This document shows positions 2,001 through 32,000 of a DNA stretch of 32,000 bases, piece by piece. This DNA comes from Parasynechococcus marenigrum WH 8102 (GTDB taxonomy: Bacteria; Cyanobacteriota; Cyanobacteriia; PCC-6307; Cyanobiaceae). Each line of letters begins with the position of its first letter. The stretch's first letter is position 1. The notes below the pieces were generated by a model. It ran no database searches and was not told the DNA's origin. It saw only the letters and a program-made list of their open reading frames with translations. The DNA is taken from assembly GCF_000195975.1 (NCBI RefSeq), contig NC_005070.1:600001-632000 (forward strand), read 5' to 3'. The position numbers and the translations under genes were made by a program.

Positions 2001-3040
2001 GCCAGATGTTGCTCGGTCGCAGCGCGGCCGAGCTGGAGAGCTGGGCGGTTGCTCAGGGGCAGAAGCCCTTTCGTGGGAGGCAGCTGCACGACTGGCTCTA
2101 CGCCAAGGGAGCCCGATCCCTGTCGGAGATCACCGTTCTGCCGAAGGCTTGGCGGGAGTCTCTCAAGGAAGACGGTGTTGAGGTCGGTCGCCTGAAGGAG
2201 GTGCATCGTTCGGTTGCTGCAGACGCGACCACCAAATTGCTGTTGTCCACCGATGACGGCGAGACGATCGAGACCGTTGGCATCCCCACTGATCAGCGGC
2301 TGACGGTCTGTGTGTCCAGCCAGGTGGGCTGTCCGATGGCCTGCCGTTTCTGCGCCACCGGTAAAGGAGGCCTGCAGCGCTCGCTGCGCACCCACGAGAT
2401 CGTTGATCAGGTGCTCAGTGTGCGAGAGGTGATGGATCGCCGGCCCTCCCACATCGTGTTCATGGGCATGGGGGAACCTCTCCTAAACAGCCAGGCGGTT
2501 CTCGATGCCATCCGCTGCCTGAACGACGACCTCGGGATTGGTCAACGTCGGATCACGGTGAGCACCGTTGGTGTTCCGAAAACCCTGCCACAGCTGGCCG
2601 AGCTGGCTCTGGCGACCCTCGGTCGGGCCCAGTTCACCCTTGCGGTGAGCCTTCATGCCCCCAACCAAGCGCTGCGGGAAGAGCTCATCCCCACGGCTCA
2701 TGCCTATCCCTACGAGGCCTTGCTGGAAGACTGTCGTCACTATCTGGCCGTGACCGGCCGTCGCGTCAGCTTCGAATACATCCTTCTGGGTGGTTTGAAC
2801 GATGCCCCCGAACACGCCGCAGAACTGGCCGATCGGGTGGGAGGGTTCCAGAGCCACGTGAACCTGATTGCCTACAACCCGATTGAAGAGGAGGAGTTTC
2901 AACGTCCCACCCGCGCCCGGATTGAGGGCTTCCAGCGTGTGCTCGAGCGTCGTGGTGTGGCCGTCAGTCTGCGCGCAAGTCGCGGCTTGGATCAGAACGC
3001 TGCCTGCGGTCAGTTACGACGTCGACGTCAGGGTAGCTGA
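1997..3040 (+). CDS. rlmN: 23S rRNA/tRNA (adenine-C2)-methyltransferase RlmN, radical SAM
   Basis: Radical-SAM cluster motif [12 protein letters not shown]-terminal [11 protein letters not shown] block and C-terminal ACGQL. The start is either GTG 1997 or ATG 2006. Confidence 0.93.
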
Positions 3041-3765
3041 GCTGCAATGAGCTTTTGATAGAGCTGAATGTCGTGTCCATAGGTCAGCTCAAATTGGTGT
3101 CGCACCCGATCGGGAAGCCGACCCGGTTCTGGTTGATCAGTTTGTAGGGCCTGACTCCTGTTGAGATGAGGTAGTTGTTGGCTAAAAGGGATGCCACGTT
3201 GCTCCATTAGCTCACTGAGTCGCTCCCAGTCTGTCTTTAGATTTTCGAGGCAGCCGATGTAATCAGGGAGCCTTCCTTTTGAGTCGCTGATCAGAAACGT
3301 TTGAGGTTGTGTATGAACATCCATCGAGTCAAGGCTCAGTTCACAAGTTAATTCGACAAACTCACTGAAGGTCATTGCCTTCGTGTAGCCGAGGCGCTGC
3401 ATAGCAGGGAAGATCGATGGTCGAAGGATTTTCTCTCGATAGCAAGAGAAAAGCCTTTGTAATGGCTCCCGTATGAAGGTGAAAGTAAATACTTTCTTGC
3501 GAATAGCAGTATATCTGTCTGGTTTTAAAAACATTGCCTCTGTTGTGCAAAGTTTCCAGAAGCGGTCGTTTGTTGGCTCTAGATTTCTTGCTGTGCGGGG
3601 GTTCTTGGCTGCGCTTGTTTTTACTAATTCTGATAAAATTGTTTTGATTGAAGTGTTCGCACACTTCGGGATCCGCGCATAAACGAGCTTGTGCTTGGGG
3701 ATGTAAAGGAAGCCCTTCCCTTTCACGGTCTGTTCGTTCTGCTTGAGCCGGACTTTACGAACCAC
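3028..3765 (-). CDS. Sulfotransferase, family-2 (carbohydrate sulfotransferase-like)
   Basis: 245-aa ORF in a lower-GC patch. It has a 5'-PAPS-binding-like motif RIPKCANTS, the block [18 protein letters not shown] and DVHTQPQ. The last 4 codons plus stop lie antisense inside the rlmN 3' end (13-nt convergent overlap). Confidence 0.8.
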
Positions 3766-5558: not shown

Positions 5559-5564
5559 CCACCC

Positions 5565-5690
5565 TTGTCTTTTTTTCGAACAACTCTGTTGCCAGCCCTG
5601 ATCGTGGTGCTTTTCGCACTGGCACTGGTGGCCGTCAGCGCCAGGATCTGGCTGCCAGGAGACATGCTGGCTCCCGCTCCTATCGGATGA
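5565..5690 (+). CDS. Possible 41-aa single-TM peptide (TTG start), in the same frame as the symporter directly after its TGA
   Basis: Hand translation after TGA 5556-5558: PP-L(TTG 5565)SFFRTTL-L(TTG 5589)PALIVVLFALALVAVSARIWLPGDMLAPAPIG-TGA(5688-5690). It has a 20-residue hydrophobic helix and G/C-rich third positions. No ATG start and no recognisable RBS. Confidence 0.2.
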   Translation: MSFFRTTLLPALIVVLFALALVAVSARIWLPGDMLAPAPIG

Positions 5691-5707
5691 CATGGGGTGA
5701 TTCATCA

Positions 5708-5747
5708 ACAATGCAGCACTTTGATGGTTACCAAAGTGCTGCATTGT
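5708..5747. terminator. Perfect 15-bp stem / 10-nt loop hairpin between convergent genes (terminator or RNA-stability element)
   Basis: acaatgcagcacttt (5708-5722) pairs perfectly with aaagtgctgcattgt (5733-5747). The loop gatggttacc contains the TAA stop (5728-5730, minus strand) of the KpsT-like gene. No flanking U-tract on either strand, so it is not a canonical intrinsic terminator. Confidence 0.35.
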
Positions 5748-6576
5748 CACCGTCGTCCGGGTCGTCATTCTCCGGCAACGAAGAACTTTCGTACTCTATT
5801 TCATTGTCAATAGAATCGTCTATTGGGGCATCCTTGATGTTGCTCAAATACCATTGATGACATTCATCGATTTTGCCTTCATAGACGATGCTTCCCTTGT
5901 GGAGTACGATTCCGTCCTCGCAATATTGCTGTAATATACTAAAATCTTTATTCGCCATGATCAAGGGCTTGTCTTCGGTGCGGCTATTAAGTGCATTTTG
6001 GAATCTCAAGAATCGCTCCGACTTTTCGTTGGCCTTCAATGCGAAGATCTGAGGGATAATGTAAGCATCGAAATCGAACGCAAGCGAAACCGCTAGGTAA
6101 AACCTTGTCCGCATGAATTTATGGTAGACCCGCAGGGGTTTGTCGAAGAAACCGTCTTCTAGGCTTGCAATGGTTTGAATGACGTCTAAGTCATGGTTCC
6201 GTTGTCCGGCGTGGCCATAAATGCCTTGAAGAAATGCTGCATTCTGTCGGCCTGTTAGCGAGTTCAGTAACCCACCTCGTGCACCAAGCGGCCAGCTCGC
6301 ATTGCAATGAATGGTGACCTGTCCGTTCTGCACAGGAACAACGCCCGCTGCGCAATCGAGAAAGGCATGTGCTTCGCGAATGGAAGGTGAGATCACGCCA
6401 ACTCTTTGCCCTTGTTGCAATTGCCAGCTGACGTTATTGAGTAAGCGATTAGTTGTTTCTTTGGCGCCACTGACGTCACGTACAACACCCTGAAGTTCAA
6501 TCAAGGGCTGATTCGAGATGGAGAAGGGGGGCGTGTTCGAATTCTTGCCTGTCAACGTTGATGTTGCTATTCCCAT
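5728..6576 (-). CDS. KpsT-like ABC-transporter nucleotide-binding-domain homologue with degenerate catalytic motifs
   Basis: 282-aa ORF in a lower-GC patch. It aligns by eye along the whole length of capsule-export KpsT (SWPLG..GG...SLTGRQN, Y..FM.TRF.LAVSLAFDFDAYII, IMAN...L.QYC...IVL). Walker A, ABC signature, Walker B D-E and the H-loop His are all substituted. It has an acidic C-terminal tail. Confidence 0.8.
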   Translation of the reverse strand: MGIATSTLTGKNSNTPPFSISNQPLIELQGVVRDVSGAKETTNRLLNNVSWQLQQGQRVGVISPSIREAHAFLDCAAGVVPVQNGQVTIHCNASWPLGARGGLLNSLTGRQNAAFLQGIYGHAGQRNHDLDVIQTIASLEDGFFDKPLRVYHKFMRTRFYLAVSLAFDFDAYIIPQIFALKANEKSERFLRFQNALNSRTEDKPLIMANKDFSILQQYCEDGIVLHKGSIVYEGKIDECHQWYLSNIKDAPIDDSIDNEIEYESSSLPENDDPDDGDNAALW

Positions 6577-6869
6577 CTTTTTGTAGTGATTTGCGGTTGA
6601 TTTGGCTGCGTCCTAAGCAGGGATTTTTAATCAATTCTATTCAGTGGTCGTTTCGTGAGATGGGTCTGTTCCAGCAGCAGCGTCGCTGTCTCAGCATTTC
6701 ATGGGTTGTCGGAGTCGCTTCTGAATCCACGCCAGCCCGTCCTGTCCTTGTCTTTCTTCACAACCGAGGTCCGTTCGAGGGGTGATGGGCTCACAGAACC
6801 ATCCAAATTGGTGTGGATCCTCTCCGATCGACCTGTTCTTGCGGTGGTTTGTCGACTTACGATCCGGGA

Positions 6870-7679
6870 ATGAGCGACAGCGACGCCAGAAAACGCGATC
6901 AGAGTTTGTCCAGCCTGTCACTGGATCCAGATTTGCTGGCGGAAGAGCTGGCCGCTGAACAGGACATCGACCCCCTTGATGCGATCGAGCCCGACGAGTC
7001 ACAGATCGACTCCCAGGGTGTCGCCAGGGCCTGTGATCAAGGGCTGGTTTGGCTTCAGCAGGGGCATGACCAGCGACTTCAAGGGTTGAGGATCTTCTGC
7101 GAGCACCGGGATCCCCGTGCTGTTCCTCTCCTGCTCGATTTGTTGAATCGGCCCTGCCCGGTGGAACGGATGAGTGCCGTTTATGCCCTGGGTCGCAATC
7201 CGTCTCCTCCTGCCGTCGAGCCGCTGTTGGGCCTGCTCCAGTCCGATGGCAATGCATACGTCCGCAAGGCCACGGCCTGGAGCCTGGGGAATTATCCGGA
7301 TGCTCCGATCCTCAATCCGTTGATTCGAGCTCTGCAGGCCGATGTGGCGGCGGTGCGGATCTGGTGTCCGGGGTCTCTTGCTGAAGCGGGAAGCCGCTCA
7401 CCGGCTAAGGCCGATCCCGCAGCTGGTCAACTTCTGGTCAGTCTGACCATCGACAGTGAGCCGGTGGTGCGCAGCAACAGTATTTGGGCGCTTGGTCGCC
7501 TTTACGAGCAACTGGTGGCTCCCAGGAGGCTGGAGCTAGTGGAGGCACTTGTGTCTGCTCTGCTCCACGACGGTGAGGCGTCAGTCCGTGATGAGGCGCG
7601 CACAGCCCTCGAACAACTGGAAGATCCGACTGTTCTTGAACGGCTGCAGACTTTGATCGATGAAGGCTTCCTGAGCTGA
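6870..7679 (+). CDS. HEAT-repeat (PBS-lyase HEAT-like) protein
   Basis: Repeated units of the type VR..A..ALG......AV.PL...L (RMSAVYALGRNPSPPAVEPLLGLL, YVRKATAWSLGNY, VVRSNSIWALGRL, SVRDEARTALEQL). ATG 6870 is preferred over the upstream TTG 6813 of the track ORF. Confidence 0.8.
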   Translation: MSDSDARKRDQSLSSLSLDPDLLAEELAAEQDIDPLDAIEPDESQIDSQGVARACDQGLVWLQQGHDQRLQGLRIFCEHRDPRAVPLLLDLLNRPCPVERMSAVYALGRNPSPPAVEPLLGLLQSDGNAYVRKATAWSLGNYPDAPILNPLIRALQADVAAVRIWCPGSLAEAGSRSPAKADPAAGQLLVSLTIDSEPVVRSNSIWALGRLYEQLVAPRRLELVEALVSALLHDGEASVRDEARTALEQLEDPTVLERLQTLIDEGFLS

Positions 7680-12748: not shown

Positions 12749-12777
12749 ATTGGACCTCGGAGCCGCAGCGCCACTCC

Positions 12778-16439: not shown

Positions 16440-16472
16440 CGGCGATCAGGATGGGTGTTTCGTTGGCCGGTG

Positions 16473-22198: not shown

Positions 22199-23020
22199 AT
22201 GATCAAAATGCGAGCCGGACTTGTCGAACAGATCAAGTTGACGCTTGATCGTCTTTGGTTGCAAATCAGAATCGTTCTCGCGCTTTCTGAAACGGAGTTC
22301 GTCCTCAGAGCTGAAAAGGGATCCTTTGGTGCTTGGGGTGTTCTGTTTGAACCCCTGGCATTGATATTGACACTACTGGCTTTAAGAATTTTTATTCGGT
22401 TGAAGTCTACGGATTTCTTGAATCCTGTGCTCTGGCTGACGTGTGGAATCGCGCTCCTTTATATGTTCAGGAAAATTGGAATCAAGGCGCTGACGGGGGT
22501 TTCAAAGCGTCAGAAATTCTTTTTCTATCGTCGTATCCGTCCACTGGATACTTTGCTGGCGTCAGCGCTGATTGAAGCGAGAATTCATGGGGCAATTTTA
22601 GTCTTCGTCTTCATCGGCGTTTCATTTTGGAGTTGGCAGATCAAGTTGGACGATCCGGCTCTAGTACTAATCGATTTCCTTTTGACCGTTGCCCTGGGAT
22701 TGGGTATTGGTATCAGTGCTTTGGTGATCGGTCATCGCATCCCGATTGTCAAGGTCTTGACAAAATTTGGAATCAATCGCTTGCTTCTCTGGACGTCTGG
22801 AATTTTTTATGCCGTATACACACTTCCAGGCCCAGTTCGTCCGTTCGTGACTTGGAATCCATTGCTGCACTCTGTTGAATTGCTACGCCATGGCATCAAT
22901 GTGGCCTATCCCATACCTGGTATCAGCTTGCAGTACTTGCTTGTGTGCAGTTCTCTGAGCTGTGGATTTGGACTACTGTTTTATTTCCTCAATGAGGCTC
23001 TGCTTCTTGCCGATGACTGA
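22199..23020 (+). CDS. kpsM: ABC-2 type polysaccharide export permease, KpsM-like
   Basis: 273 aa with about 6 TM segments. The C-terminal block WNPLLHSVELLRHGI parallels E. coli KpsM WNPLVHVVELSREAV, and the overall layout matches. Confidence 0.85.
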   Translation: MIKMRAGLVEQIKLTLDRLWLQIRIVLALSETEFVLRAEKGSFGAWGVLFEPLALILTLLALRIFIRLKSTDFLNPVLWLTCGIALLYMFRKIGIKALTGVSKRQKFFFYRRIRPLDTLLASALIEARIHGAILVFVFIGVSFWSWQIKLDDPALVLIDFLLTVALGLGIGISALVIGHRIPIVKVLTKFGINRLLLWTSGIFYAVYTLPGPVRPFVTWNPLLHSVELLRHGINVAYPIPGISLQYLLVCSSLSCGFGLLFYFLNEALLLADD

Positions 23021-24236
23021 ACAGCCCCGCGTAACACCAACGGCTGCCCCGCGACTGAGGCTGGGTGACGGTGTTCGTCGTATCGAATCCTTTACAGGCG
23101 TCCAAACCAGTTCGCTCCTGCCGAGGCTTCGCTCTGGGCTTCAGGGAACATGGGGGAATCTGTTTAATGTTGGGACTTTAGCGGTCGCTTTCGTTGCCAT
23201 CTCGGGGGTGTATTGCTTCGGGATTGGCCGTGATCGCTATCAAGCGACATCTGAATTCGTAATCAAGCAGCCGATGCCGCCGGCGACGGCAACAACAACA
23301 GTTTTGGGTTCAATGCTCAGCTCCAGTGTTCTTTCATCGCTTGAGGATGGACGCTACTTGCAGGTTTATTTGAAATCCAATGCTGTGAAACAGGCTGTCT
23401 TCCCTGATTCTTCAGCCTTCAAGTCGACCTATGCGCCTCAGGCTCCTGATCGATGGAGTGGCCTGCGTGATGATGCCAATGAGCAAGAGCAGCTTGCATT
23501 TTTCCAACGGCAGCTCGAGGTGACCCCACAAGAGCTTTCAGGAACCATTCTACTGTCAACCAGTGCCTTTACTGCTGATGCTGCTTACCAACTTAATAAC
23601 AATCTTCTCAAACAAGCGCAACGCTTTGTCAACGAAGTGAATCAGTCAATCAGTGCTGATCAGCAGAGCTTTGCTGAGGAACAGGTGGCCTTAGCTAAAA
23701 CGCGCTTGAAAAAAGCCGGTGATGCACTGGAAGACTTTCAGGATCGTTATGGCCAATTGGATCCGCAGGGTGAACAGAATGCCACAACTGGTTTCATCAC
23801 TGGCTTGGAATCTCGGCTAGTCGATCTAAAGGTCGAGGAGGCCAGTCTTCGTCGCCAGTTTCGTGATCCCAATGCACCTGAGGTGGCTCTTGTTAGCGAT
23901 CAAGTGCGAGAACTGGAGCGTCAGATTCAGGAAGAGCGACAAAAAGCAGTTGGGTCAGGTGGACGCGACCTAAATAAACTGGCCCGTCAAGCTTCTGGTT
24001 TGCAATCAGATGTGAATTTTGCGAGTGAATCTCTAAGCTCGGCTATGCGTGCAGCTGAAAACAGTAGGATGGAGAGTCAGCGTCAGCTGAAATTCATTGT
24101 GATGCTAAGCAAGCCGCAAATGCCCTCTGGACCTGAGACATCGTGGCGTTGGAAGGCTTTCCTATCGTGCCTTGGTGTTTTGATCGTGGTCTGGGGTGTA
24201 GGAGGATTTATGCTGACGGCATTGCGGCGTGATTAA
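23013..24236 (+). CDS. kpsE: Capsule-export periplasmic adaptor / polysaccharide co-polymerase, KpsE/CtrB-like (PCP-3)
   Basis: N-terminal TM followed by DRYQATSEFVIK (the KpsE-type motif DRY.S...F.V), a long coiled-coil periplasmic region and a C-terminal TM. ATG 23013 overlaps the kpsM stop (ATGACTGA, 8 nt). Confidence 0.75.
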   Translation: MTEQPRVTPTAAPRLRLGDGVRRIESFTGVQTSSLLPRLRSGLQGTWGNLFNVGTLAVAFVAISGVYCFGIGRDRYQATSEFVIKQPMPPATATTTVLGSMLSSSVLSSLEDGRYLQVYLKSNAVKQAVFPDSSAFKSTYAPQAPDRWSGLRDDANEQEQLAFFQRQLEVTPQELSGTILLSTSAFTADAAYQLNNNLLKQAQRFVNEVNQSISADQQSFAEEQVALAKTRLKKAGDALEDFQDRYGQLDPQGEQNATTGFITGLESRLVDLKVEEASLRRQFRDPNAPEVALVSDQVRELERQIQEERQKAVGSGGRDLNKLARQASGLQSDVNFASESLSSAMRAAENSRMESQRQLKFIVMLSKPQMPSGPETSWRWKAFLSCLGVLIVVWGVGGFMLTALRRD

Positions 24237-24406: not shown

Positions 24407-27349
24407 TCAATTATCCTGCTGCACTCGTTTTACTTCTTCCAGGTAATTTTCTATTTGTCGCGCTAATCGACGATTGCCGCGACGGATGGTTTCCTTCCAG
24501 TCTTTAATGTCTACCTCATGAGGGTTGTCTCGAAGCAAGCTAACCTTGATGAAGGGGAACTCATGATCCTCAATGAGTGATTTCCATTCAGCATGAAGAA
24601 TATTGCCATTTGCATTCTTTGAATAAAGGCTTTCAAGAGTCATCCCATTCTCTTTGAGAAGAACAGAGAGTCCGACCTCATAGTTTTTGACAATGCTGCG
24701 TTTTTCATCCCAACACATTATGTTGTCCCAGAACTGCCAGAATGACGGACAAGAAACAGCGCGACGTTTAAACATTAGAAATGCAGATTGTAGATGGGGT
24801 TCGTACATGAGATTGTCCGTTAAACCAATCACATCCGCTTGGCTATTGGCAAGGCGATTGATCATGCCTGTTAGGGGACGAATCGGACCCCAAAAACTAT
24901 CGTTACTGAGCAATACAGATTGTCTTTGATCGATCAGATCTCGACAAAACCTTAGACCAGTCATCCAGCTTCCAAAGTCATATCCTTCATTACGTCGAAT
25001 AATGAGTCCATCACAAACGCTCCTGAGCGTAGTTAATTCACGGGGGTGGTGTAGTAAGGATGGTGTTGCGGCAACAACTTGGACGTAAAAATAACGCCGA
25101 TACTTCCTTAAAAGATCAAGAATGTCAGAGCGAATTGGTTTGTCGTTATTGGAGGCATATTGCGCAAAGATCAGTGGTATACGTTTGTCATTCTTTCTTG
25201 CCGGACGCCTCCAAGTCAACAATACTTCTTCTCGTGCTGGCCTGAGAGGAACCACTTGCTTCAGGATTGGTTCGTATCTTGTTGAATGATGATGAAGGAG
25301 GGGGCTGGTTAATGGATCACCTTGTGCATAAATTTTTTTATGCTTTAGGCGCAGACGTCCTGATTCACGTTGATGTCGTGCCCAAGCTAATCCAACTTGA
25401 TCTTTACCGCGGCTAATTGACTCGTAGTGAGTGATCGTTGCATGTGGCGTCACAACAACGCTACCCCCTGCATCCCTGAGTCTGAGGCAAAGGTCGACAT
25501 CATTGAATACAACGGCGAGTTTTTCATCAAATCCACCCACCATGTCAAACCGCTCGGCTTTCACCATCAAGCAGGCTGCAGAGGCTGCGGAAAACTCCTC
25601 TTGTGTTCTGAGAGGCAAAAGGCTGGCAATCACTTCTTGCTCAATAAGATGCTTGCCAGGTTCAAGAACGCAACGACGCTCACCAGGAATAATGAGAACT
25701 CCTTGATGTTGGATGCTGCCATCGGGGTAATTAAGCCTCGAACCAACGGCTACAGTTTTGGGATGTGCAAAGGGATCTAGAAGTACATCAAGAACACTTT
25801 CGGAGATAAACTTGATATCATTGTTTAGGAAAAGTAGAAAATCTCCTCTGCATAACTGGCGGGCTTTGTTATTTAGTCGCGAGTAATTAAATTTTTCGTC
25901 GAGGCGTATGCATTGAATATTGTCTTCCTTGATGGCTTCTCTGATCCATTCTTTTGTGGCATCTTCGACACTTCCGTTGTCAATTAAAACGATTTCATAG
26001 GTGCATTCTTTACCGGCATTAAGCTTGATCGAGTCAACACATACTCTTGTTAGTTCTACTTGATCTCTAAATGGAATCAATATGGATACCAAGGATGATT
26101 TATCTGTAGGACGAGACAAGTCATGGCATCCTGCCTGTAACGGGTTGGGCTTGAGCCCACTCTCTATTCCAAAATATTGTTTGGCATGCTGACTTCTGAT
26201 ACGACCGATCTCATCTAAATGCTGATCACTCAATGGGCATCGCTCTCTGGGCCAGCCTTGTTCAGGTATTGAAGGATTCTGAGAGCTTTGATGCTTGACG
26301 AGCGCTTGATGACAGTGGGTTGTCTTGATCGGATTGCGAGTTATCTGTAGGAGTACGTCCAGACGCAATGCCTCTAGGCAGGTATAACTAGGAGCAAATT
26401 TACACCGCTTTAATAATAGATCATAGGGTAGCGTTAGCAGCCCTCCAATGCCTCCGCGGGTACACAGACGAATGGCTGATACTGGGCTTCGGTATTGCCG
26501 ATGTTCATATCCGAGCCCATCATTCCAAAGTTGGTAAACAATAATGTCATCGCAGGTCAACACAGTGTCCACTTTTGTTTGTTGGAGTTGTCCCGCTAAA
26601 GCATGTAGGGCTCCATTGGCCAACATATCGCTGGCATGACAAATAGTGATCCACTCTGCAGAGTTCTCTCTTAGCAGATTTGGCAAAGAATTCATATTTG
26701 CCAAAGAGCAAGAAACCACATCGTTCCAACCACCTACAACAGCTAGTGATTGTGCTTGGTGTGTTGTTCCATCAATGACTAAAAGTAGATGCTTTGTTGT
26801 TAAAACGGAGGAATTTATTGCGGGTAACTTTGTTGGATGATATCGATCAAGGCCTGTCGCAACAGATTCTTGCCGACGGAAATGATCCCACCCCTCCGTC
26901 GCGAGATGTTCGAGCAAAGAGATTTTATTAGTGCGTGTAATTTGTCTCTGTGTTTTGTTCAGGCCTGCCTCATAGGCTCCAATGGGTATTGGCGGTAGAT
27001 CTCCGTAAAGAGACAGATGACCATTTAAAATCTGATTAAGCGTCCCACTCACTAGTAACTCATTGATTGATAAGAGGTGCCGATGTTGAAGTAGTAAGGG
27101 AATTTTTTGAATTCCATCTTCCAGTGGGTTCCATGTTGTTGGCTCCAACAGCAGGGAAATGGGTAAATATCTTGGGTTAAGTAGATGACAGTCTAAATAA
27201 TCATGCAAGCTTGCAAGATCTGATTTGATTAAATCAAGATCTATGCCGATACGTTTGAATAGTTTGAGTTGTTTTTGTATAGAGCCAATAGAGATTTTTC
27301 CATTTCTCCAATCTTGAAAAGATTTTGACCAGTGATCGTTGGGATTCAT
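24407..27349 (-). CDS. Multidomain glycosyltransferase: degenerate GT-like N-region + GT2 domain + rhamnan-synthesis-F (RgpF-like) domain
   Basis: 980 aa. The GT2 core is about aa 419-650 (VSILIPFRD, LIDNGS, FNYSRLNN, FLLFLNNDI, FNDVDLCLR; nt about 25400-26095). The RgpF-like region is about aa 722-945 (IFAQY, RRNEGYDFGSW, LSNDSFWGP, HLQSAFLMF; nt about 24515-25186). Confidence 0.9.
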   Translation of the reverse strand: MNPNDHWSKSFQDWRNGKISIGSIQKQLKLFKRIGIDLDLIKSDLASLHDYLDCHLLNPRYLPISLLLEPTTWNPLEDGIQKIPLLLQHRHLLSINELLVSGTLNQILNGHLSLYGDLPPIPIGAYEAGLNKTQRQITRTNKISLLEHLATEGWDHFRRQESVATGLDRYHPTKLPAINSSVLTTKHLLLVIDGTTHQAQSLAVVGGWNDVVSCSLANMNSLPNLLRENSAEWITICHASDMLANGALHALAGQLQQTKVDTVLTCDDIIVYQLWNDGLGYEHRQYRSPVSAIRLCTRGGIGGLLTLPYDLLLKRCKFAPSYTCLEALRLDVLLQITRNPIKTTHCHQALVKHQSSQNPSIPEQGWPRERCPLSDQHLDEIGRIRSQHAKQYFGIESGLKPNPLQAGCHDLSRPTDKSSLVSILIPFRDQVELTRVCVDSIKLNAGKECTYEIVLIDNGSVEDATKEWIREAIKEDNIQCIRLDEKFNYSRLNNKARQLCRGDFLLFLNNDIKFISESVLDVLLDPFAHPKTVAVGSRLNYPDGSIQHQGVLIIPGERRCVLEPGKHLIEQEVIASLLPLRTQEEFSAASAACLMVKAERFDMVGGFDEKLAVVFNDVDLCLRLRDAGGSVVVTPHATITHYESISRGKDQVGLAWARHQRESGRLRLKHKKIYAQGDPLTSPLLHHHSTRYEPILKQVVPLRPAREEVLLTWRRPARKNDKRIPLIFAQYASNNDKPIRSDILDLLRKYRRYFYVQVVAATPSLLHHPRELTTLRSVCDGLIIRRNEGYDFGSWMTGLRFCRDLIDQRQSVLLSNDSFWGPIRPLTGMINRLANSQADVIGLTDNLMYEPHLQSAFLMFKRRAVSCPSFWQFWDNIMCWDEKRSIVKNYEVGLSVLLKENGMTLESLYSKNANGNILHAEWKSLIEDHEFPFIKVSLLRDNPHEVDIKDWKETIRRGNRRLARQIENYLEEVKRVQQDN

Positions 27350-28254
27350 TGATTGTTCTTGCTTGCCAGTTTGAGAAGTTGTCGTACTAGTGCAGGGAAT
27401 AGCCCCCCTTTGTCAGAAGTTATGACCTCTAATTGTCTTTCTGTCTCGCTCATGTTCGTTCCTGACTCTTGACTCACTACCTCATCATGATCCCCTCTTA
27501 GATTATGATCTTCTATCTCTGGCTTATTAGATATCGGTTGATCCGATAAGGATTCTTTTAACTCTTTGTTCTCTTCTACAAGGAGTGCATATTTAGCTCT
27601 TTGTTTTCTTAGAGATTTTTGCAGTCGTTCGTTTTCCCGCACAAGGCAATCATAGTTACTTTGCATCTGCGTTAATTGATTTAAACTATTTTCAACTTCT
27701 TCAAAACTTGCTTCGCGGTCTAGGTTGACCTCCCACCAGTCCATGAGTGCGAGATCAATCAATGAGCCTTGGCTCAACCTTTGTAGATAGTTGCTGTCAG
27801 CTTCCAGGCCAAATAAGTGTGATTTTAGTTCTAGATCAAGGTAAATATCAATAATTCTTGGTTCTTTTCTCGCAATCTCTAGGCTTAGTAAGCTTGAAAG
27901 GGACTTGGGGCTGGGAAAGTTAATACTTTTATCTAGCAGTGGATTCTCACCATTACAAAGTCTTATGATTGATGTACTGTCAAGTGAATTCAGGCGCCAA
28001 CTTGACGAGATATTTTTGTATTTTGCAGATAACAAGGATAACTCTTCATAATATGCGCGAATTTCATTGCATGTTGTTGCGGTGCTTTCTTCGAGTCGTT
28101 TTTGTTCAAGCACTTGATTGGGAGCCGAATAAATTAATAGCACATTTTGAGGTTCATTATCAGAATTGATCGATGTAAGTGGTTTAAGTCCTGCTTTGGC
28201 TAGTTTGTCTCTTAGCGATGAAAGAATATTTGTTGTCGAATACCAGTACTGCAT
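27346..28254 (-). CDS. Hypothetical protein with C-terminal coiled coil, translationally coupled to the 980-aa glycosyltransferase
   Basis: 302 aa from ATG 28254, which is preceded by AGGA about 7-10 nt upstream; the track uses GTG 28308. Heptad-like region EEVENSLNQLTQMQSNYDCLVRENERLQKSLRKQRAKYALLVEENKELKESL. Its stop overlaps the GT start as ATGA (27346-27349). No family recognised. Confidence 0.6.
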   Translation of the reverse strand: MQYWYSTTNILSSLRDKLAKAGLKPLTSINSDNEPQNVLLIYSAPNQVLEQKRLEESTATTCNEIRAYYEELSLLSAKYKNISSSWRLNSLDSTSIIRLCNGENPLLDKSINFPSPKSLSSLLSLEIARKEPRIIDIYLDLELKSHLFGLEADSNYLQRLSQGSLIDLALMDWWEVNLDREASFEEVENSLNQLTQMQSNYDCLVRENERLQKSLRKQRAKYALLVEENKELKESLSDQPISNKPEIEDHNLRGDHDEVVSQESGTNMSETERQLEVITSDKGGLFPALVRQLLKLASKNNQ

Positions 28255-28280
28255 TTGATTCCTGATCCTTACACGCAGTC

Positions 28281-28286
28281 TATAAT
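28281..28286 (+). promoter_or_regulatory. Consensus -10 hexamer TATAAT in the divergent control region
   Basis: Exact TATAAT at 28281-28286, 22 nt upstream of ATG 28309. No good -35 at 17-bp spacing (attcct); TTGATT lies at 20-bp spacing. It overlaps the alternative ATG 28285. Confidence 0.2.
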
Positions 28287-29415
28287 GCAGAAAGCTCTCG
28301 AAGCTCACATGACGTCCAGTCTATGCCTAAGTGTATTAATAGGCTGTCCCGCCTCACCAACGCTTCTCCCTGAAAACCCTTGTTTGATTATTAATGCCGA
28401 GTCAATCGATAGGAAAGAATTGATTGCTCAGGAATCTTTTTGTGCACATTATCGTGAATTGTCGGCCGACGATGTAGTACTCCTCAATCAGACGGTGATA
28501 TCAGAACTTGATCATCAGATTGTTGAATGGCATAGTTTCTCAGACAGGCGATTTAATGGGCCTTCTCAATTATCAGAATTTTCCGAACAATATCCAAACT
28601 TAAGATTAGTTGAGAGCAGGAAGATTGAAGGGATCACTCTTTCTACTGTATTGGTGGATCAAAAAAGTCTTTCAGATCCACTTTCAACCTTTGAGCTTAT
28701 TTTACGTGAGGGTGATCCGTTAGTTGTTCTTCAAAGTGCAAAGGAGTGGTTGGCCCGATGTACTCGCATCACTTTGCGTGGTTTAGTCACTAGCTCTAAA
28801 TCTCGTGAGGCTGCTGAGGCATTTTTGGGGGCATCGGGCTTTTGCAAATCATCGGTTGATTCTTGTGTATGGACTCCTGAGCTTGAGGTGTCGTCACTGC
28901 ATCTATCCTTAATCAGATGTGGTTTGTTGGCCTTATTTAATGCTGATGTCTATCGAGAACTATATCCTCAGACGCAGGAAATGACAGATGTTGAACTGAT
29001 TGACCACTGGTTATCACAGCCTGATTTTCGAGATGTATCTAAAATAATGAAAGATGCTACTCAACGTAATCCAACTCCTCTCGCTGAATTGACGGACCAA
29101 GATCCCGCACTTCAGTTGTTGCAGAACATTTTTCCTTTTGATTTTTATCGTTCTCAAAGAACAGATCTCTCACAGATCCCTAACAGAGAGTTGATCAATC
29201 ACTATTGGACACATGGGCAATATGAGGGAATTGATCTCTCGGAATCAAATGTCAAAAATGTTCTCGGTAAAGATCAATCTTTGCAAGTCAACCGACTGAA
29301 TACTCGTATTCATGAACTAGAGCATCTTTTATCGTGCGCTAACGCACAGATTAGTGCAATGCAGAAATTGATTGTTAGTTCACGAGATTCGGGAGCTACC
29401 AATGAACAATACTGA
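28285..29415 (+). CDS. Hypothetical protein with two copies of a glycan-enzyme-associated F-x-x-x-Y...ELI-x-H motif and a coiled-coil tail
   Basis: The start is ambiguous (TTG 28255, ATG 28285, ATG 28309). From ATG 28285 the N-terminus MQKALEAHMTSSLCLSVLIGC carries a lipobox-like LIGC. The middle region weakly resembles the C-terminal half of FkbM-type methyltransferases (ITLSTVL..., FELILREGDPLVVLQSAKEWL) without a SAM-binding glycine motif. Confidence 0.6.
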   Translation: MQKALEAHMTSSLCLSVLIGCPASPTLLPENPCLIINAESIDRKELIAQESFCAHYRELSADDVVLLNQTVISELDHQIVEWHSFSDRRFNGPSQLSEFSEQYPNLRLVESRKIEGITLSTVLVDQKSLSDPLSTFELILREGDPLVVLQSAKEWLARCTRITLRGLVTSSKSREAAEAFLGASGFCKSSVDSCVWTPELEVSSLHLSLIRCGLLALFNADVYRELYPQTQEMTDVELIDHWLSQPDFRDVSKIMKDATQRNPTPLAELTDQDPALQLLQNIFPFDFYRSQRTDLSQIPNRELINHYWTHGQYEGIDLSESNVKNVLGKDQSLQVNRLNTRIHELEHLLSCANAQISAMQKLIVSSRDSGATNEQY

Positions 29416-30703
29416 TCAGATACTTGCCTGTCGCGTCTTGGCGAATGATTATTTATCAGGAAGATGGCAGAAAGTTACCAATACAGTACGTTCTCTGAAC
29501 GATTCAGCTGAATGTCGTAATTGTTCCACTTTCAGTGACTTCGCGCGATTTCTTTTAAGTTTATCTCCTTCTGAAATTTTGAAGGAGGATTGGAAGCCTG
29601 CTTTAGTGCCACAACGTACCTCTTTTACTGAGGCACGTCTTCGGTACTGCGCAACTCATTTGCTTGGTGCTTGTAATAATTTTGCGTGCAGAAATGATCA
29701 ACAATATCGCTATAGGCTTCAATTATTTTGCCTTAGCTTAAGTGACTTGCTCAAATCTGATGCTGATTTTATACTCATTTCTGATATATTTTCATTTTCC
29801 GACTCTTTCATATCACTTAGTCAGAGTATCCGTATATTCTATTTGGCTTATAGGCGTCGTTTGCATGAGTCATTTCCTCAACAGATGACGGTTGTTTTAG
29901 GGATGCACCGTAGTGGAACATCAGCGTTAACTGGACTGCTTGGTAATTTTGGTATTTCAGGACCTAATGATCCATTAGGTGCCACCGAAAATAATCTGTT
30001 GGGCTATTGGGAATCTACTTCTTTAGTCACTTCTTCTGATCAATTTTTGTTGTCTCAACATAGCCATTGGTCGCAACTTTACCACTGGTCTTTTGGTTGG
30101 TGGAAATCAGCGGCGGCTCTAGACTGGATTGATTCTTATTGGCACGATTTGCAAAATGCTTACAATACGAATGAACACTTTGTCTTGAAAGATCCTCGCC
30201 TTTGTATTCTGTTCGAGGGCATGATTCCATGTCTAGTTGAGTCTCTAGTGCAGTTAGATTTTTTGTTGATATTACGTTCTCCTGTTGAGGTTGTTATTTC
30301 TTTGTGCAAGGCAGAAAAAATCTCTCCATACGACGCTCTTAATTTGTGGATTGGCTCAGTATTTCGCGCAGAATGTATGTCACGTCCGTATTCTCGCAAT
30401 ATTCTCACGTACTACCAGCTCCTTAATAGTCCACAAGCTATTGTGGATTCATTGGGCCTGAGCTGGAATCCAAGCCTTATGGAATCAAGGCTTGATCAAG
30501 CAACATCTTTTTTAAGACCCTCATTGTACCGAACCAAGGTTGATAACGTAAGGGAATCGTTTGTGGCTACAAATCCTGAGTTGACTAGTCTTCTTGTTTT
30601 GGCTGAACAGATTTTTGATTGTTTTCAATATCCAACCCCAGATATTGCTCTTACATCAGAGAAATTAAAGTACCAGTGGCTCGAAATCTTGGCAGATCGT
30701 TAG
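29402..30703 (+). CDS. Sulfotransferase (P-loop-type GMHRSGTS family) fused to an unknown ~165-aa N-terminal domain
   Basis: PAPS-binding-like motif VVLGMHRSGTSALTGLL (nt about 29901-29924 encodes GMHRSGTS), followed by LGYWES. ATG 29402 overlaps the upstream gene by 14 nt. Confidence 0.8.
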   Translation: MNNTDQILACRVLANDYLSGRWQKVTNTVRSLNDSAECRNCSTFSDFARFLLSLSPSEILKEDWKPALVPQRTSFTEARLRYCATHLLGACNNFACRNDQQYRYRLQLFCLSLSDLLKSDADFILISDIFSFSDSFISLSQSIRIFYLAYRRRLHESFPQQMTVVLGMHRSGTSALTGLLGNFGISGPNDPLGATENNLLGYWESTSLVTSSDQFLLSQHSHWSQLYHWSFGWWKSAAALDWIDSYWHDLQNAYNTNEHFVLKDPRLCILFEGMIPCLVESLVQLDFLLILRSPVEVVISLCKAEKISPYDALNLWIGSVFRAECMSRPYSRNILTYYQLLNSPQAIVDSLGLSWNPSLMESRLDQATSFLRPSLYRTKVDNVRESFVATNPELTSLLVLAEQIFDCFQYPTPDIALTSEKLKYQWLEILADR

Positions 30704-30731
30704 CAAACGCTTCTGTAAATAACTTTGCAGC

Positions 30732-32000
30732 CTACTGTCGCAGATAGTAATCTTTCATCCTCCTGAAATTGGACCTCAGTTCAATTCCTTGCTTGACGCT
30801 TTCTGGTGAAGTGTTAATACTAAAGTCTTCATGAATCTTTGTTAGATTTGGATTGTAAAATAAATCACTTGGTAGCTCCCCATTGCTTTGAATGTCGTAT
30901 TGATTTAGCATGAAGTTTATCTCTCTCTTGAAACGTTCTTTCTTTTCGGGAGAATCTTCAGTTCCGCGGGATATTGATTCGTGGTGAAACAGCTCAGCAT
31001 ACGGGGTGAAAATATTTCGATATCCTCTTGCGTGAACCCTCATGCAAAAGTCGACATCGTTAAATGCGATTGTGAGGTCTTGTTCATTGAGGCCGCCTAC
31101 CTCGTTGAAAATTTCTCTGCGAATTGCGAGACATGCTGCAGTTACTGCTGTCATCTGTTGAACATATTGAAGTCTGTCGACATAACCCGGACTATCTCCC
31201 GGAAAGTACTTATGGGCATGACCGGCGACTTGGCCAATTCCAATAACTACACCTCCATGCTGAATAGTCCTATTTGAATAGTATAACTTTGCACCGACAC
31301 ATCCAACATCTGGCCTTGAAGTGTGGGAAACAATTTCTTGGAGCCATTTGCTAGAGATGACCTCGACATCATTGTTTACCAGGACAACAATATCTGCTGT
31401 TGATTTTCTGACTGCATAATTATTGATGGCCGAGTAGTTGAACTTCTTGTTGTATTTTATGATGTTTATTTTTTCGCCGTGCACCCTCTTCAGATTCTTG
31501 AATAGATTCTTTGTGGCGACTTCTTCGCTCTGATTGTCAACTACGGTGATTGTATAGTTCGTGTAGGTCGTCTTGGTAATGATTGAATCCACTGCGAGAT
31601 TTAATACCTCTGCTTGATCTCGAGTGGGGATAATGAGCTCAACAGAGGGTGACTTATCTGGTATGTGCCACTGGCAGGTGAATCGGTTCTTGGCCTTGAT
31701 TCGGGCTGTCGCCCTTACGCCTCCACGTCGATGCTGCTCGTCCAGGAAATGCTGGACTGCCTTATGACCGCTTTCAGTTGTGTAATCCTTGCTGTCTGGG
31801 TTGCTGGCGGTTGATTCGGAATGTGCTCGCCAGTGGTACAAGACTCTAGGGATGTGAATAATTTGGTCCGGGGAAGATTCCAGGACAGTCCTGAGTGCAA
31901 GATCGTGATCTTGGCTTCCCTCGAAGCCAACTCGGAAGCCACCAATTTGTTTGAGGATCTCCCTTCTGTAAACACCCAAGTGTGAGATGAAATTGTAAGA
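30732..32000 (-). CDS. Tandem GT2-family glycosyltransferase, N-terminus outside the window
   Basis: The frame is open to base 32000 (SYNFISH precedes the track TTG at 31979). The tail of a first GT2 domain is GVYRREILKQIGGFRVGFEGSQDHDLALR. A complete second GT2 domain follows (VELIIPTRD, VVDNQS, FNYSAINN, VVLVNNDVEV, FNDVDFCMR). Confidence 0.9.
   Translation of the reverse strand, partial: SYNFISHLGVYRREILKQIGGFRVGFEGSQDHDLALRTVLESSPDQIIHIPRVLYHWRAHSESTASNPDSKDYTTESGHKAVQHFLDEQHRRGGVRATARIKAKNRFTCQWHIPDKSPSVELIIPTRDQAEVLNLAVDSIITKTTYTNYTITVVDNQSEEVATKNLFKNLKRVHGEKINIIKYNKKFNYSAINNYAVRKSTADIVVLVNNDVEVISSKWLQEIVSHTSRPDVGCVGAKLYYSNRTIQHGGVVIGIGQVAGHAHKYFPGDSPGYVDRLQYVQQMTAVTAACLAIRREIFNEVGGLNEQDLTIAFNDVDFCMRVHARGYRNIFTPYAELFHHESISRGTEDSPEKKERFKREINFMLNQYDIQSNGELPSDLFYNPNLTKIHEDFSINTSPESVKQGIELRSNFRRMKDYYLRQ

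What the first reader, a model, noticed from the sequence alone, without database searches (positions are those of the whole stretch)
5728..6576. Intact KpsT-like ABC ATPase homologue in which every catalytic motif is replaced
The 282-aa product aligns by eye with capsule-export KpsT over its whole core, including the Q-loop region (SWPLGARGGLLNSLTGRQNAAF), the block around the ABC signature and the hydrophobic strand of Walker B. The residues that do chemistry are all gone. Walker A GxxGxGK[ST] is VISPSIREAH (nt about 6367-6396). Signature SSGM is HKFM. Walker B hhhhDE is AYIIPQ. The H-loop MVSHS position is MANKD. Despite this the ORF is uninterrupted, has a ~25-aa N-terminal extension and has a strongly acidic tail (DAPIDDSIDNEIEYESSSLPENDDPDDGDNAALW). 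It sits alone in its own lower-GC patch, 16 kb from a kpsM-kpsE pair that has no ATPase next to it. A pseudo-NBD kept intact suggests a regulatory, scaffolding or plug role for a KpsM-type exporter rather than an energising one. I am not aware of that being described for capsule-type ABC exporters.
Basis: partly seen in the sequence, partly recalled or inferred. Interest (0 to 1): 0.75.

Follow-up and report, generated by a model that had tools for sequence, protein, structure and literature searches.

The report
Motif-less KpsT subunit of polysaccharide exporter
A marine Synechococcus gene encodes a conserved copy of KpsT, the ATP-burning motor of capsule-type polysaccharide exporters, that has lost every ATP-handling motif; selection keeps it, and in relatives it shares an operon with the KpsM/KpsE export channel, so this exporter's motor subunit probably no longer uses ATP.

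Summary
ORF 5728-6576 (-) encodes a 282-aa protein. Its best solved relative, by sequence (E 4e-19) and by predicted fold, is KpsT of the KpsMT-KpsE capsule exporter. Pfam ABC_tran does not detect it. Walker A, Q-loop Gln, signature, Walker B and H-loop are all replaced.

It is not a decaying pseudogene. All 13 full-length orthologues are intact. dN/dS is 0.07-0.18. The replaced Walker A stretch is among the most conserved parts of the family.

It belongs with KpsM/KpsE. In several relatives the same degenerate gene lies beside, or overlaps by 4 nt, kpsM-kpsE. No canonical ABC ATPase occurs in any of these operons, in the window, or 10 kb beyond it. It shares its low GC3 (about 0.5, core about 0.7) with kpsM, kpsE and a nearby sulfotransferase.

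Two new points. The gene plus its promoter is a swapped cassette (69% identity inside 98-99% identical flanks). Fully degenerate KpsT-like proteins are widespread (47 of the 150 top KpsT-like sequences analysed), with probably two or three origins.

Best reading: a non-catalytic, KpsM-docking subunit. Its actual role and the energy source are untested. I could not rule out a canonical KpsT elsewhere in the genome. Databases label it an ATPase.

The parts
5728..6576 (-). pKpsT: 282-aa KpsT-like pseudo-nucleotide-binding domain (stop codon at 5728-5730)
   Evidence: ORF. KpsT homology E 3.8e-19. NBD fold. No Pfam ABC_tran hit. dN/dS 0.07-0.18.
6367..6396 (-). Former Walker A / P-loop position, residues 61-70 VISPSIREAH (canonical G-x-x-G-x-G-K-S/T)
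   Evidence: Alignments. Family consensus GVISxSxxEAHAF. This stretch is among the most conserved in the family (mean 0.77).
6232..6297 (-). Q-loop / start of helical subdomain, residues 94-115 SWPLGARGGLLNSLTGRQNAAF. It is the block best shared with canonical KpsT, but the Q-loop Gln itself is Leu.
   Evidence: 9 of 20 consensus positions are shared with canonical KpsT in residues 101-120, the highest of any 20-residue block. S94, W95, G98, L107 and R110 are invariant.
6112..6126 (-). Former ABC signature position, residues 151-155 YHKFM (canonical YSSGM)
   Evidence: K153 is conserved in at least 90% of the family.
6049..6066 (-). Former Walker B, residues 171-176 AYIIPQ (canonical hhhhDE). 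P175 is invariant in the family.
   Evidence: In S. thermodepolymerans KpsT the single change E151Q at this Glu abolishes secretion (PMC11041684).
5944..5961 (-). Former H-loop, residues 206-211 IMANKD (canonical IMVSH; His becomes K210)
5731..5835 (-). Disordered polyacidic C-terminal tail, residues 248-282, ending in L-W
   Evidence: pLDDT below 50 for 257-282. Net charge is -8 to -15 over the last 35 residues in 14 of 14 marine family members, all ending LW or MW. W282 is conserved in at least 90%.
5680..6830 (.). Swapped allelic cassette: the pKpsT gene plus its upstream (promoter) region
   Evidence: Window against L012 DNA: 94-100% identity outside, 58-78% across 5700-6500, unalignable 6500-6800. 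Flank dS is 0.10-0.20, while pKpsT pS is 0.77, i.e. saturated.
22199..23020 (+). kpsM: ABC-2 type permease, the presumed membrane partner
   Evidence: PDB 8tsh_C E 1.4e-18. NCBIfam KpsM E 7e-29. 57% identical to the L008 KpsM whose gene overlaps pKpsT. GC3 0.50.
22962..24236 (+). kpsE: PCP-3 co-polymerase / cage subunit (gene callers start it at 23013)
   Evidence: PDB 8tsh_E E 4e-35. TIGR01010 BexC/CtrB/KpsE E 9e-54. Called as 407 aa in L019.
3028..3765 (-). Sulfotransferase (Sulfotransfer_2). It is the second low-GC, fast-evolving gene of the same conserved neighbourhood and is possibly part of the same pathway.
   Evidence: Pfam E 1.6e-24. GC3 0.50. 53-73% identity in strains whose flanks are 83-97% identical. 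Sulfotransferase genes flank the degenerate kps operon in L015/L016.
24407..31979 (.). Low-GC glycan-synthesis island next to kpsM-kpsE: 980-aa GT2+RgpF protein, three ORFs without family hits, and a GT2. It continues beyond the window with a GT and rmlBDCA.

Best explanation
pKpsT is the dedicated cytoplasmic subunit of a KpsM-KpsE-type polysaccharide export apparatus of picocyanobacteria. It keeps the ABC nucleotide-binding-domain fold and the surface that docks on the permease, but it can no longer bind or hydrolyse ATP.

Shown: it is a KpsT homologue with an NBD fold. All ATP-site motifs are replaced by other residues that are themselves conserved. It is under purifying selection. In several related lineages it is encoded in one operon with kpsM and kpsE, with no canonical ABC ATPase in those operons. 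In this genome it shares the atypical base composition of kpsM and kpsE.

Inferred: it binds the KpsM dimer through the retained Q-loop / helical-subdomain region and acts as a non-catalytic structural or gating subunit. Transport of the glycolipid, probably a sulfated rhamnose-containing glycan, is then either ATP-independent or controlled rather than powered by this subunit. ATP-independent transport could mean facilitated flipping in the KpsM canyon pulled by downstream steps, or another energy source.

More speculative: the disordered polyanionic tail ending in Leu-Trp is a linear motif. It either mimics the polyanionic substrate at the electropositive KpsM entrance (a plug or gate) or recruits a partner.
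For: Homology and fold.

Motif loss in the correct register. No Pfam ABC_tran hit.

Selection: all 13 full-length orthologues are intact and dN/dS is 0.07-0.18 in unsaturated pairs. The former Walker A stretch is among the most conserved segments in the family (0.77), and P175, K153 and D211 are conserved.

Retained permease-facing block: residues 94-115 and 141-180 hold most positions shared with canonical KpsT.

Operon linkage:
- L008: pKpsT stop overlaps the kpsM start by 4 nt.
- P0036/P0037 contigs: pT, then 269 aa, then 390 aa.
- L017, L018, L021: DUF1997-(340 aa)-pT-KpsM-KpsE.
- L020: pT overlaps a KpsM N-terminus.
- L015/L016: KpsD-KpsM-pT-KpsE-like plus four sulfotransferase genes.

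No canonical NBD: none in the window, in L019 (10 kb beyond the window) or in these operon contigs L008, L015-L018 and L021.

Co-divergence with partners: identity to the window for pT/KpsM/KpsE is 46/57/-, 29/43/46, 34/39/44 and 26/21/22.

Shared composition: GC3 is 0.52 (pKpsT), 0.50 (KpsM), 0.47 (KpsE) and 0.50 (sulfotransferase), against 0.63-0.76 in core genes.

Literature: E151Q alone abolishes secretion by canonical KpsMT, and the glycolipid can enter and move within the KpsM canyon without ATP (PMC11041684). kpsE, kpsM and kpsT are listed together as differentially expressed in an oceanic Synechococcus (PMC12274634).
Against: I could not search a complete genome, so a canonical KpsT/Wzt-type ATPase encoded elsewhere remains possible. 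In this genome pKpsT is 15.6 kb from kpsM-kpsE, so co-expression and physical interaction are inferred from other lineages. Loss of ATP binding is inferred from sequence, not measured; the P-loop-equivalent loop has the same length as in KpsT. No ATP-independent KpsM-type exporter is known, and canonical KpsMT strictly needs ATP hydrolysis. No KpsD (outer-membrane) or KpsC/KpsS (Kdo linker) homologue is in the window. KpsM has Lys at the position of StKpsM Arg94, where Lys was not tolerated.
Confidence: 0.55

Rival explanations
1. Brake or regulator of an ATP-driven exporter. A canonical KpsT/Wzt-type ATPase encoded elsewhere powers KpsM. pKpsT competes with it for the KpsM docking site or heterodimerises with it, giving inactive or throttled complexes that set export rate or chain length.
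For: The docking-side residues are retained. The gene has its own promoter region and is swapped as a separate cassette. Heterodimeric ABC exporters with one degenerate site are well known (PMC7756269, listed). The whole genome was not searched.
Against: Five independent operon contexts contain pKpsT as the only NBD-like gene, two of them with 4-nt overlaps with kpsM that suggest stoichiometric co-production. A pKpsT:KpsT heterodimer would have no intact composite ATP site, because pKpsT lacks both Walker A and the signature.
Confidence: 0.2
2. Remodelled ligand sensor. The former ATP pocket, whose new residues (S-x-S-x-x-E-A-H-A, K153, P175, D211) are conserved, binds another small molecule, such as PAPS/PAP or a nucleotide sugar. 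It couples export to precursor supply or sulfation state.
For: The substituted motif residues are conserved, not random. There is a recurrent association with sulfotransferase genes.
Against: No known binding motif was recognised. Other degenerate subgroups carry quite different residues at the same positions, which argues against one shared new ligand.
Confidence: 0.1
3. Function detached from KpsM in marine Synechococcus. After relocation away from the kps operon, the protein works through its acidic LW tail with another partner, for example the divergently transcribed HEAT-repeat protein.
For: The gene is 15.6 kb from kpsM. The location next to the HEAT-repeat gene is conserved in all marine loci. 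The LW tail is specific to the relocated marine group and is absent from the operon-encoded L008/P0036 type.
Against: The KpsM-facing block is still the best conserved. Composition is shared with kpsM/kpsE. L017/L018-type operon-encoded members also have acidic tails. The HEAT gene is a slow-evolving core gene (98.9% identity where pKpsT is 69%), so it does not co-vary with pKpsT alleles.
Confidence: 0.1
4. Decaying pseudogene, or chance ORF, that happens to be intact here.
For: It evolves faster than its neighbours (dN 2-10 times higher) and lacks all catalytic motifs.
Against: Orthologues are intact in all 13 full-length loci. dN/dS is 0.07-0.18. There are hundreds of database members of 263-282 aa. 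The fold prediction is confident.
Confidence: 0.02

Closest known systems
KpsT, the NBD of the KpsMT-KpsE(-KpsD) capsular polysaccharide ABC exporter (S. thermodepolymerans 8tsh/8tsi/8tsl; E. coli group 2 capsules)
   Same: Best sequence and fold match. Similar core length. Partners KpsM and KpsE are both present and also best-match the same cryo-EM complex. Operon adjacency to kpsM/kpsE in relatives. Shared SWPxG...LTGRxN and FDxP...MRxR...AFDFD blocks.
   Different: Walker A, Q-loop Gln, signature, Walker B and H-loop are all replaced. Pfam ABC_tran fails to detect it. It has an extra disordered N-terminus and a polyacidic LW tail. It is encoded away from kpsM in marine Synechococcus. No KpsD, KpsC or KpsS was found nearby.
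Wzt / TagH / TarH, the NBDs of O-antigen and teichoic-acid ABC-2 (type V) exporters
   Same: Next-best sequence and fold matches. Same exporter class with an ABC-2 permease.
   Different: Those are active ATPases, often with a C-terminal carbohydrate-binding domain. Here there is no ATP site and the C-terminus is a disordered acidic tail.
Degenerate nucleotide-binding sites of heterodimeric type I ABC exporters (TM287/288, TAP1/2, CFTR class; review PMC7756269)
   Same: Precedent that ABC transporters keep NBDs with non-consensus motifs for regulatory or structural purposes.
   Different: In those, only one of two composite sites is degenerate, it still binds ATP, and Walker A is intact. Here every motif, including the P-loop, is gone from the only NBD-like gene of the operon, which implies that both sites would be dead.
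Current database annotations of this very protein
   Same: The 90%-identity cluster that holds the window's exact protein includes QNI50407.1 'ABC-type polysaccharide efflux transporter/ATPase component [Synechococcus sp. RS9915]', and IMG calls family members 'capsular polysaccharide transport system ATP-binding protein'.
   Different: These names assert an ATPase or ATP-binding function that the sequence does not support. PGAP calls a relative 'hypothetical protein'. The full-text searches found no paper noting the degeneracy.

Membership tests
ABC transporter ATP-binding domain (Pfam PF00005 ABC_tran) | Match to the family profile | tested here: not met
   No Pfam hit at E<=10. None of P0001-P0037 carries a precomputed PF00005 hit, whereas canonical hits P0038 and beyond do.
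ABC transporter ATP-binding domain (Pfam PF00005 ABC_tran) | Walker A G-x-x-G-x-G-K-[ST] | tested here: not met
   SPSIREAH at the aligned position.
ABC transporter ATP-binding domain (Pfam PF00005 ABC_tran) | ABC signature (LSGGQ; YSSGM in KpsT) | tested here: not met
   YHKFM.
ABC transporter ATP-binding domain (Pfam PF00005 ABC_tran) | Walker B hhhhD-E with the catalytic Glu | tested here: not met
   AYIIPQ; P175 is invariant in the family.
ABC transporter ATP-binding domain (Pfam PF00005 ABC_tran) | H-loop His and Q-loop Gln | tested here: not met
   His becomes K210. The Q-loop Gln of canonical GGLQGSLTGR aligns with L104.
ABC transporter ATP-binding domain (Pfam PF00005 ABC_tran) | RecA-like plus helical-subdomain NBD fold | tested here: met
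   AF2 model with pLDDT 79.7. Foldseek top hits are KpsT, TagH and Wzt, with more than 1000 NBD chains at E<=1e-3.
ABC transporter ATP-binding domain (Pfam PF00005 ABC_tran) | ATP binding and hydrolysis | not testable with these tools
   Needs biochemistry. Absence is inferred from the motif loss.
KpsT (capsule export NBD) as an evolutionary lineage | Closest homologues are KpsT-type NBDs | tested here: met
   PDB KpsT E 3.8e-19, ahead of TarH and Wzt. A profile of the family retrieves KpsT-like NBDs.
KpsT (capsule export NBD) as an evolutionary lineage | Encoded with kpsM and kpsE | tested here: met
   Adjacent or overlapping in L008, L017, L018, L020, L021, L015/L016 and the P0036/P0037 contigs. 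In the window it lies 15.6 kb away in the same 32-kb region.
KpsT (capsule export NBD) as an evolutionary lineage | Reaches the curated cut-off of an NCBIfam equivalog model | tested here: not met
   Best 39.6 bits against a cut-off of 400.
KpsMT-KpsE-KpsD ABC-transporter-dependent capsule system | KpsM permease and KpsE PCP-3 present | tested here: met
   Both are below the equivalog cut-offs (101.6 of 300 and 183 of 437 bits), so they are diverged relatives.
KpsMT-KpsE-KpsD ABC-transporter-dependent capsule system | KpsD/OPX outer-membrane component and KpsC/KpsS Kdo-linker enzymes | tested here: not met
   No Poly_export or Capsule_synth hit among the window ORFs scanned or among the genes called in L019. 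The rest of the genome was not searched. L015/L016 do have a Poly_export gene.
KpsMT-KpsE-KpsD ABC-transporter-dependent capsule system | ATP-hydrolysing NBD that powers export | tested here: not met
   No canonical NBD in the window, in L019 or in the related operons. A genome-wide search was not possible.

The most novel reading that the evidence does not exclude
A distinct and widespread class of KpsM-KpsE(-KpsD) polysaccharide export machines exists in which the only NBD subunit has been converted into an ATP-blind pseudo-enzyme. It has arisen two or three times, is often linked to sulfotransferases, and is carried by marine Synechococcus. Export through an ABC-2 permease would then proceed without ATP hydrolysis at the transporter, with the pseudo-NBD and its polyanionic LW tail acting as gate or adaptor. 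Its cassette-like allele swapping may track the hypervariable surface-glycan island.
Probability: 0.35. Interest if true: 0.85.

Novelty: new variant of a known kind. Interest (0 to 1): 0.7.

Why it matters
KpsMT-type ABC exporters are the standard example of ATP-driven capsule secretion, and one Walker B point mutation stops them (PMC11041684). Here a whole, selected family pairs the permease and its periplasmic cage with a subunit that has no ATP site. There are two possibilities. ABC-2 permeases may move lipid-linked glycans without ATP, which would be a new transport mode. Alternatively, bacteria may use pseudo-NBDs as dedicated regulators of glycan export, which has not been described for this class. 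The organisms matter, because marine Synechococcus are among the most abundant phototrophs. Their surface glycans shape phage adsorption, grazing and aggregation, and the gene sits in a swapped, fast-evolving cassette. There is also a practical consequence. Cyanorak-derived GenBank records, IMG and a transcriptome paper (PMC12274634) treat this gene as a kpsT-type ATP-binding or ATPase component, so counts of 'ABC polysaccharide exporters' in picocyanobacteria may be misread.

Tried and rejected
- Pfam on pKpsT gave nothing at E<=10. PADLOC defence models gave nothing for pKpsT or the sulfotransferase, so a defence-system reading of the hypervariable cassette has no support.
- The promoter/terminator consensus scan of 5450-6900 found no sites.
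- Six full-text literature searches for a described degenerate KpsT, or for kps genes in picocyanobacteria, found no description.
- I could not test for a canonical kpsT elsewhere in the genome. I could only show absence in the window, in the next 10 kb (L019) and in six related kps operon contigs.
- I tried to name the organism of the L015/L016 operon through exact-sequence cluster look-ups of its housekeeping proteins. No member carried a name.
- I suspected that window ORFs 29402-30703 (motif GMHRSGTS) and L008:3585-4745 (GMHKTASTY) are sulfotransferases. Pfam and NCBIfam gave no support, so this remains a lead only.
- The pseudogene hypothesis is rejected by dN/dS and ORF integrity.
- One script call was empty by mistake.
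Full report
**1.

The window carries an uninterrupted 282-codon ORF at 5728..6576 on the minus strand. phmmer against all PDB chains puts KpsT of the Schlegelella thermodepolymerans KpsMT-KpsE complex first (8tsh_A/8tsi_A, E 3.8e-19, residues 46-247). TarH, Wzt and TagH follow.

- Walker A GRNGAGKS aligns with SPSIREAH.
- Signature YSSGM aligns with YHKFM.
- Walker B D-E aligns with P175-Q176.
- The H-loop His aligns with K210.
- The Q-loop Gln aligns with L104.

Pfam ABC_tran does not detect the protein even at E<=10. NCBIfam Wzt/TagH/VexC models reach only 35-40 bits against cut-offs of 313-538.

An AlphaFold2 model built on alignment A1 is confident for residues 20-256 (mean pLDDT 79.7) and disordered for 1-19 and 257-282. 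Its best PDB fold match is KpsT 8tsl_A (E 5e-18, TM 0.81 normalised on the target), followed by TagH and Wzt. So this is a genuine KpsT-type NBD fold without any ATP-site motif.

The other details are also confirmed: the acidic tail (net -12 over the last 35 residues), the roughly 24-aa N-terminal extension relative to canonical KpsT, and the low-GC patch (gene GC 0.48 and GC3 0.52 against core 0.60-0.66 and 0.63-0.76).

**2. It is a conserved family under purifying selection**

The word-indexed search of 5.8 billion proteins returned 37 cluster representatives of 244-282 aa at 42-99% identity. None has a Pfam hit. Canonical PF00005-bearing KpsT proteins appear only below about 34% identity.

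Within the family the replacements are themselves conserved. The consensus is GVISxSxxEAHAF at the former P-loop, YNKxM at the signature and IIPK at Walker B. P175 is invariant, and K153 and D211 are conserved in at least 90%. The former Walker A stretch is among the most conserved 20-residue blocks (0.77).

I extracted orthologous genes from 13 further loci (L001-L013). All are intact ORFs. Nei-Gojobori dN/dS for pairs with unsaturated dS is 0.07-0.18. Examples are L003-L007 at 0.016/0.10, L002-L005 at 0.099/0.57 and L011-L012 at 0.105/1.03. The gene does evolve faster than its neighbours, with dN 2-10 times higher at comparable dS.

**3. Genomic setting**

Seven marine Synechococcus genomes or MAGs and several ocean metagenome contigs show the same order: rpoC2 - rlmN - sulfotransferase - SSF symporter - pKpsT - HEAT-repeat protein - DUF2997 - DUF1257 - aldo/keto reductase - gidB.

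The window's exact protein belongs to a 185-member cluster that includes QNI50407.1 from Synechococcus sp. RS9915. The window therefore comes from that strain or a close relative.

Neighbours are 80-99% identical across these loci. pKpsT is only 52-69% identical, and the sulfotransferase 53-73%.

The most striking case is L012. SSF, HEAT and DUF1257 are 98-99% identical to the window (dS 0.10-0.20), but pKpsT is 69% identical with saturated synonymous sites (pS 0.77). A DNA alignment places the divergent block at about 5680-6830, which is the gene plus its upstream region. Identity is 94-100% on both sides. pKpsT is therefore an allelic cassette exchanged by recombination within a nearly clonal backbone.

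**4. It belongs with KpsM and KpsE**

In the window, 22199-23020 encodes a KpsM homologue (8tsh_C E 1.4e-18; NCBIfam KpsM E 7e-29). The next gene, running to 24236, encodes a KpsE homologue (8tsh_E E 4e-35; TIGR01010 E 9e-54). All three proteins thus best-match the three chains of one solved complex.

In relatives the degenerate gene is inside the operon:
- **L008:** at the same helicase-DUF1997 locus, the pKpsT stop overlaps the kpsM start by 4 nt. That KpsM is 57% identical to the window's.
- **P0036/P0037 contigs:** pKpsT is followed by a 269-aa gene and then a gene of about 390 aa.
- **L017, L018, L021:** the order is DUF1997-(340 aa)-pKpsT-KpsM-KpsE, with KpsM 39-43% and KpsE 44-46% identical to the window's.
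- **L020:** a P0060-type degenerate gene overlaps by 4 nt an ORF that begins like KpsM.
- **L015/L016:** an unrelated lineage of unknown taxon has KpsD-KpsM-degenerate KpsT-KpsE-like followed by four sulfotransferase genes.

None of these contigs, nor the whole window, nor the 10 kb beyond its right end (L019: GT, rmlBDCA and others), contains an ORF combining a P-loop, an ABC signature and Walker B.

Identity of pKpsT to the window falls in step with that of KpsM and KpsE. In the window, pKpsT, KpsM, KpsE and the sulfotransferase share GC3 of 0.47-0.52, against 0.63-0.76 for core genes.

The simplest history is an ancestral pKpsT-kpsM-kpsE operon at the DUF1997 locus, from which pKpsT was moved 16 kb away in the marine lineage.

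**5. What is retained and what is new**

Positions whose consensus is shared between the degenerate family and canonical KpsT concentrate in two places:
- Residues 94-115 (SWPxG..GGL..LTGRxN.xF). This is the Q-loop and the start of the helical subdomain, which in ABC transporters generally forms the groove for the permease coupling helix (established knowledge of the fold, not tested here).
- Residues 141-180 (FDxP...Y...MRxR......AFDFD), the signature helix and the Walker B strand.

The catalytic residues themselves are replaced.

The marine group has added a disordered tail of net charge -8 to -15 that always ends in L-W or M-W. The operon-encoded L008/P0036 type lacks it. The L017/L018 type has acidic tails without the LW end.

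In canonical StKpsT, E151Q alone abolishes secretion. KpsM recognises its polyanionic glycolipid in an electropositive canyon, where it can bind and shift without ATP (PMC11041684).

Of the canyon residues tested in that paper:
- The window KpsM keeps the equivalents of Arg35 and Arg89.
- It has Lys at the position of Arg94.
- Its Trp is offset by one position from Trp45 (read).

It is therefore a diverged KpsM.

**6. The phenomenon is broader than this genome**

A profile of the family searched against 1.84 billion representatives found 21,584 NBD relatives. I analysed 150 KpsT-like sequences of 195-400 aa drawn from that search, the two indexed searches and the loci. Of these, 47 score 0 of 4 on Walker A, signature, Walker B and H-loop, 13 score 1-3, and 90 are canonical. 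The intermediates include forms with a Lys-to-Arg Walker A.

In a neighbour-joining tree built with the motif columns masked, 39 fully degenerate sequences form one clade. It contains the picocyanobacterial groups, the P0054-59 group and the P0058-type group. The L015 type forms a separate clade of six among canonical KpsTs, and P0122/P0194 a third group. This suggests two or three independent losses. The tree has no support values, and long-branch attraction could inflate the large clade.

**7. Mechanism**

Shown: a KpsT-derived NBD fold with no ATP-site motifs, under selection, and genetically coupled to KpsM/KpsE without a canonical ATPase nearby.

Inferred: it docks on KpsM and serves as a non-catalytic structural or gating subunit (confidence 0.55). 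The exporter is then either ATP-independent or controlled by this subunit.

Speculative: the polyanionic LW tail mimics the substrate at the canyon entrance or recruits a partner.

The main rival (0.2) is a brake on an ATPase encoded elsewhere. A heterodimer with pKpsT would have no intact composite site, so this would be inhibition, not asymmetric catalysis. Other rivals are a remodelled ligand sensor (0.1), a function detached from KpsM in the marine lineage (0.1) and a pseudogene (0.02, refuted).

**8. Comparison with what is known, and novelty**

It works like, and descends from, KpsT. It fails every catalytic membership criterion of the ABC ATPase family. It should not be filed as an ATP-binding protein, although the GenBank record from RS9915 and IMG do so. 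A 2025 transcriptome paper lists kpsE, kpsM and kpsT together in an oceanic Synechococcus.

Degenerate single sites in heterodimeric type I exporters are the nearest precedent, but they keep Walker A and bind ATP. Six full-text searches found no description of motif-less KpsT-like subunits. Absence from that library is not proof of novelty.

I rate it a new variant of a known kind, with interest 0.7. The main open point is the untested possibility of a canonical KpsT elsewhere in the genome.

Noticed in passing
window 5680-6830; L012 (whole contig), L014: pKpsT plus its upstream region is a discrete swapped cassette. Against L012 the DNA is 94-100% identical on both sides, 58-78% inside the gene and unalignable across 6500-6800. 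Flank dS is 0.10-0.20 while the gene's synonymous sites are saturated.
   Followed up: yes
window 3028-3765 (-): A Sulfotransfer_2 gene (E 1.6e-24) forms a second low-GC patch (GC3 0.50). It is as fast-evolving as pKpsT (53-73% identity where flanks are 83-97%) and gave no match in L011, where the rlmN and SSF matches lie about 45 nt apart. It may be a variable accessory of the same glycan pathway.
   Followed up: partly
L015:7805-16002 and L016:2353-10550: An unrelated lineage of unknown taxon has a KpsD-KpsM-degenerate KpsT-KpsE-like operon directly followed by four sulfotransferase genes. This hints at a general link between motif-less KpsT and sulfated polysaccharides.
   Followed up: partly
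proteins P0076, P0084, P0108, P0118, P0122, P0141, P0151, P0176, P0184, P0194: These are partially degenerate KpsT-like NBDs. Examples are a Walker A with Lys replaced by Arg (GxSGSGRS), and an intact Walker A with a lost signature, Walker B and H-loop. They are possible intermediates on the way to full loss.
   Followed up: no
window 24407-31979 and L019:11331-21302: The low-GC island (GC3 0.35-0.47) next to kpsM-kpsE holds a 980-aa GT2+RgpF (rhamnan synthesis) protein, three ORFs without family hits and a two-domain GT2 protein (792 aa in L019; only a 415-aa ORF lies within the window). Beyond the window come rmlB, rmlD, rmlC, rmlA, a PEMT-family protein and a 670-aa cellulose-synthase-like GT. 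This suggests a rhamnose-containing surface glycan.
   Followed up: partly
window 29402-30703 (+); L008:3585-4745 (+): Both ORFs carry a P-loop-like motif reminiscent of the PAPS-binding 5'-PSB motif of sulfotransferases (GMHRSGTS and GMHKTASTY). Pfam and NCBIfam give no hit, so this is unverified.
   Followed up: partly
window 11438-16439 (-): An apparent biotin-synthesis gene run: class III aminotransferase (bioA-like), AAA_26 (bioD-like), methyltransferase (bioC-like), a weak alpha/beta-hydrolase hit and a class I/II aminotransferase (bioF-like). It is followed at 16239-17420 (+) by an SBF-family transporter. It is core-genome composition and unrelated to the finding.
   Followed up: no
window 6813-7679 (+): The divergently transcribed HEAT-repeat protein (phycobilin-lyase-like repeats, weak CpcE/CpcF hits) is a slow-evolving core gene (98.9% identity in L012). 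It gives weak PADLOC hits only through its HEAT repeats. There is no evidence that it co-varies with pKpsT.
   Followed up: partly
window 22962-23020: The longest kpsE ORF (GTG at 22962) overlaps kpsM by 59 nt. Gene callers on identical contigs start kpsE at 23013 (407 aa), overlapping kpsM by 8 nt.
   Followed up: no
window 3837-5857, both strands: Many long ORFs overlap the SSF gene on other frames or the opposite strand (for example 3837-4589 -, 5246-5857 +). They are the usual spurious ORFs of high-GC DNA. The one at 5246-5857 runs into the 3' end of pKpsT and should not be annotated.
   Followed up: no
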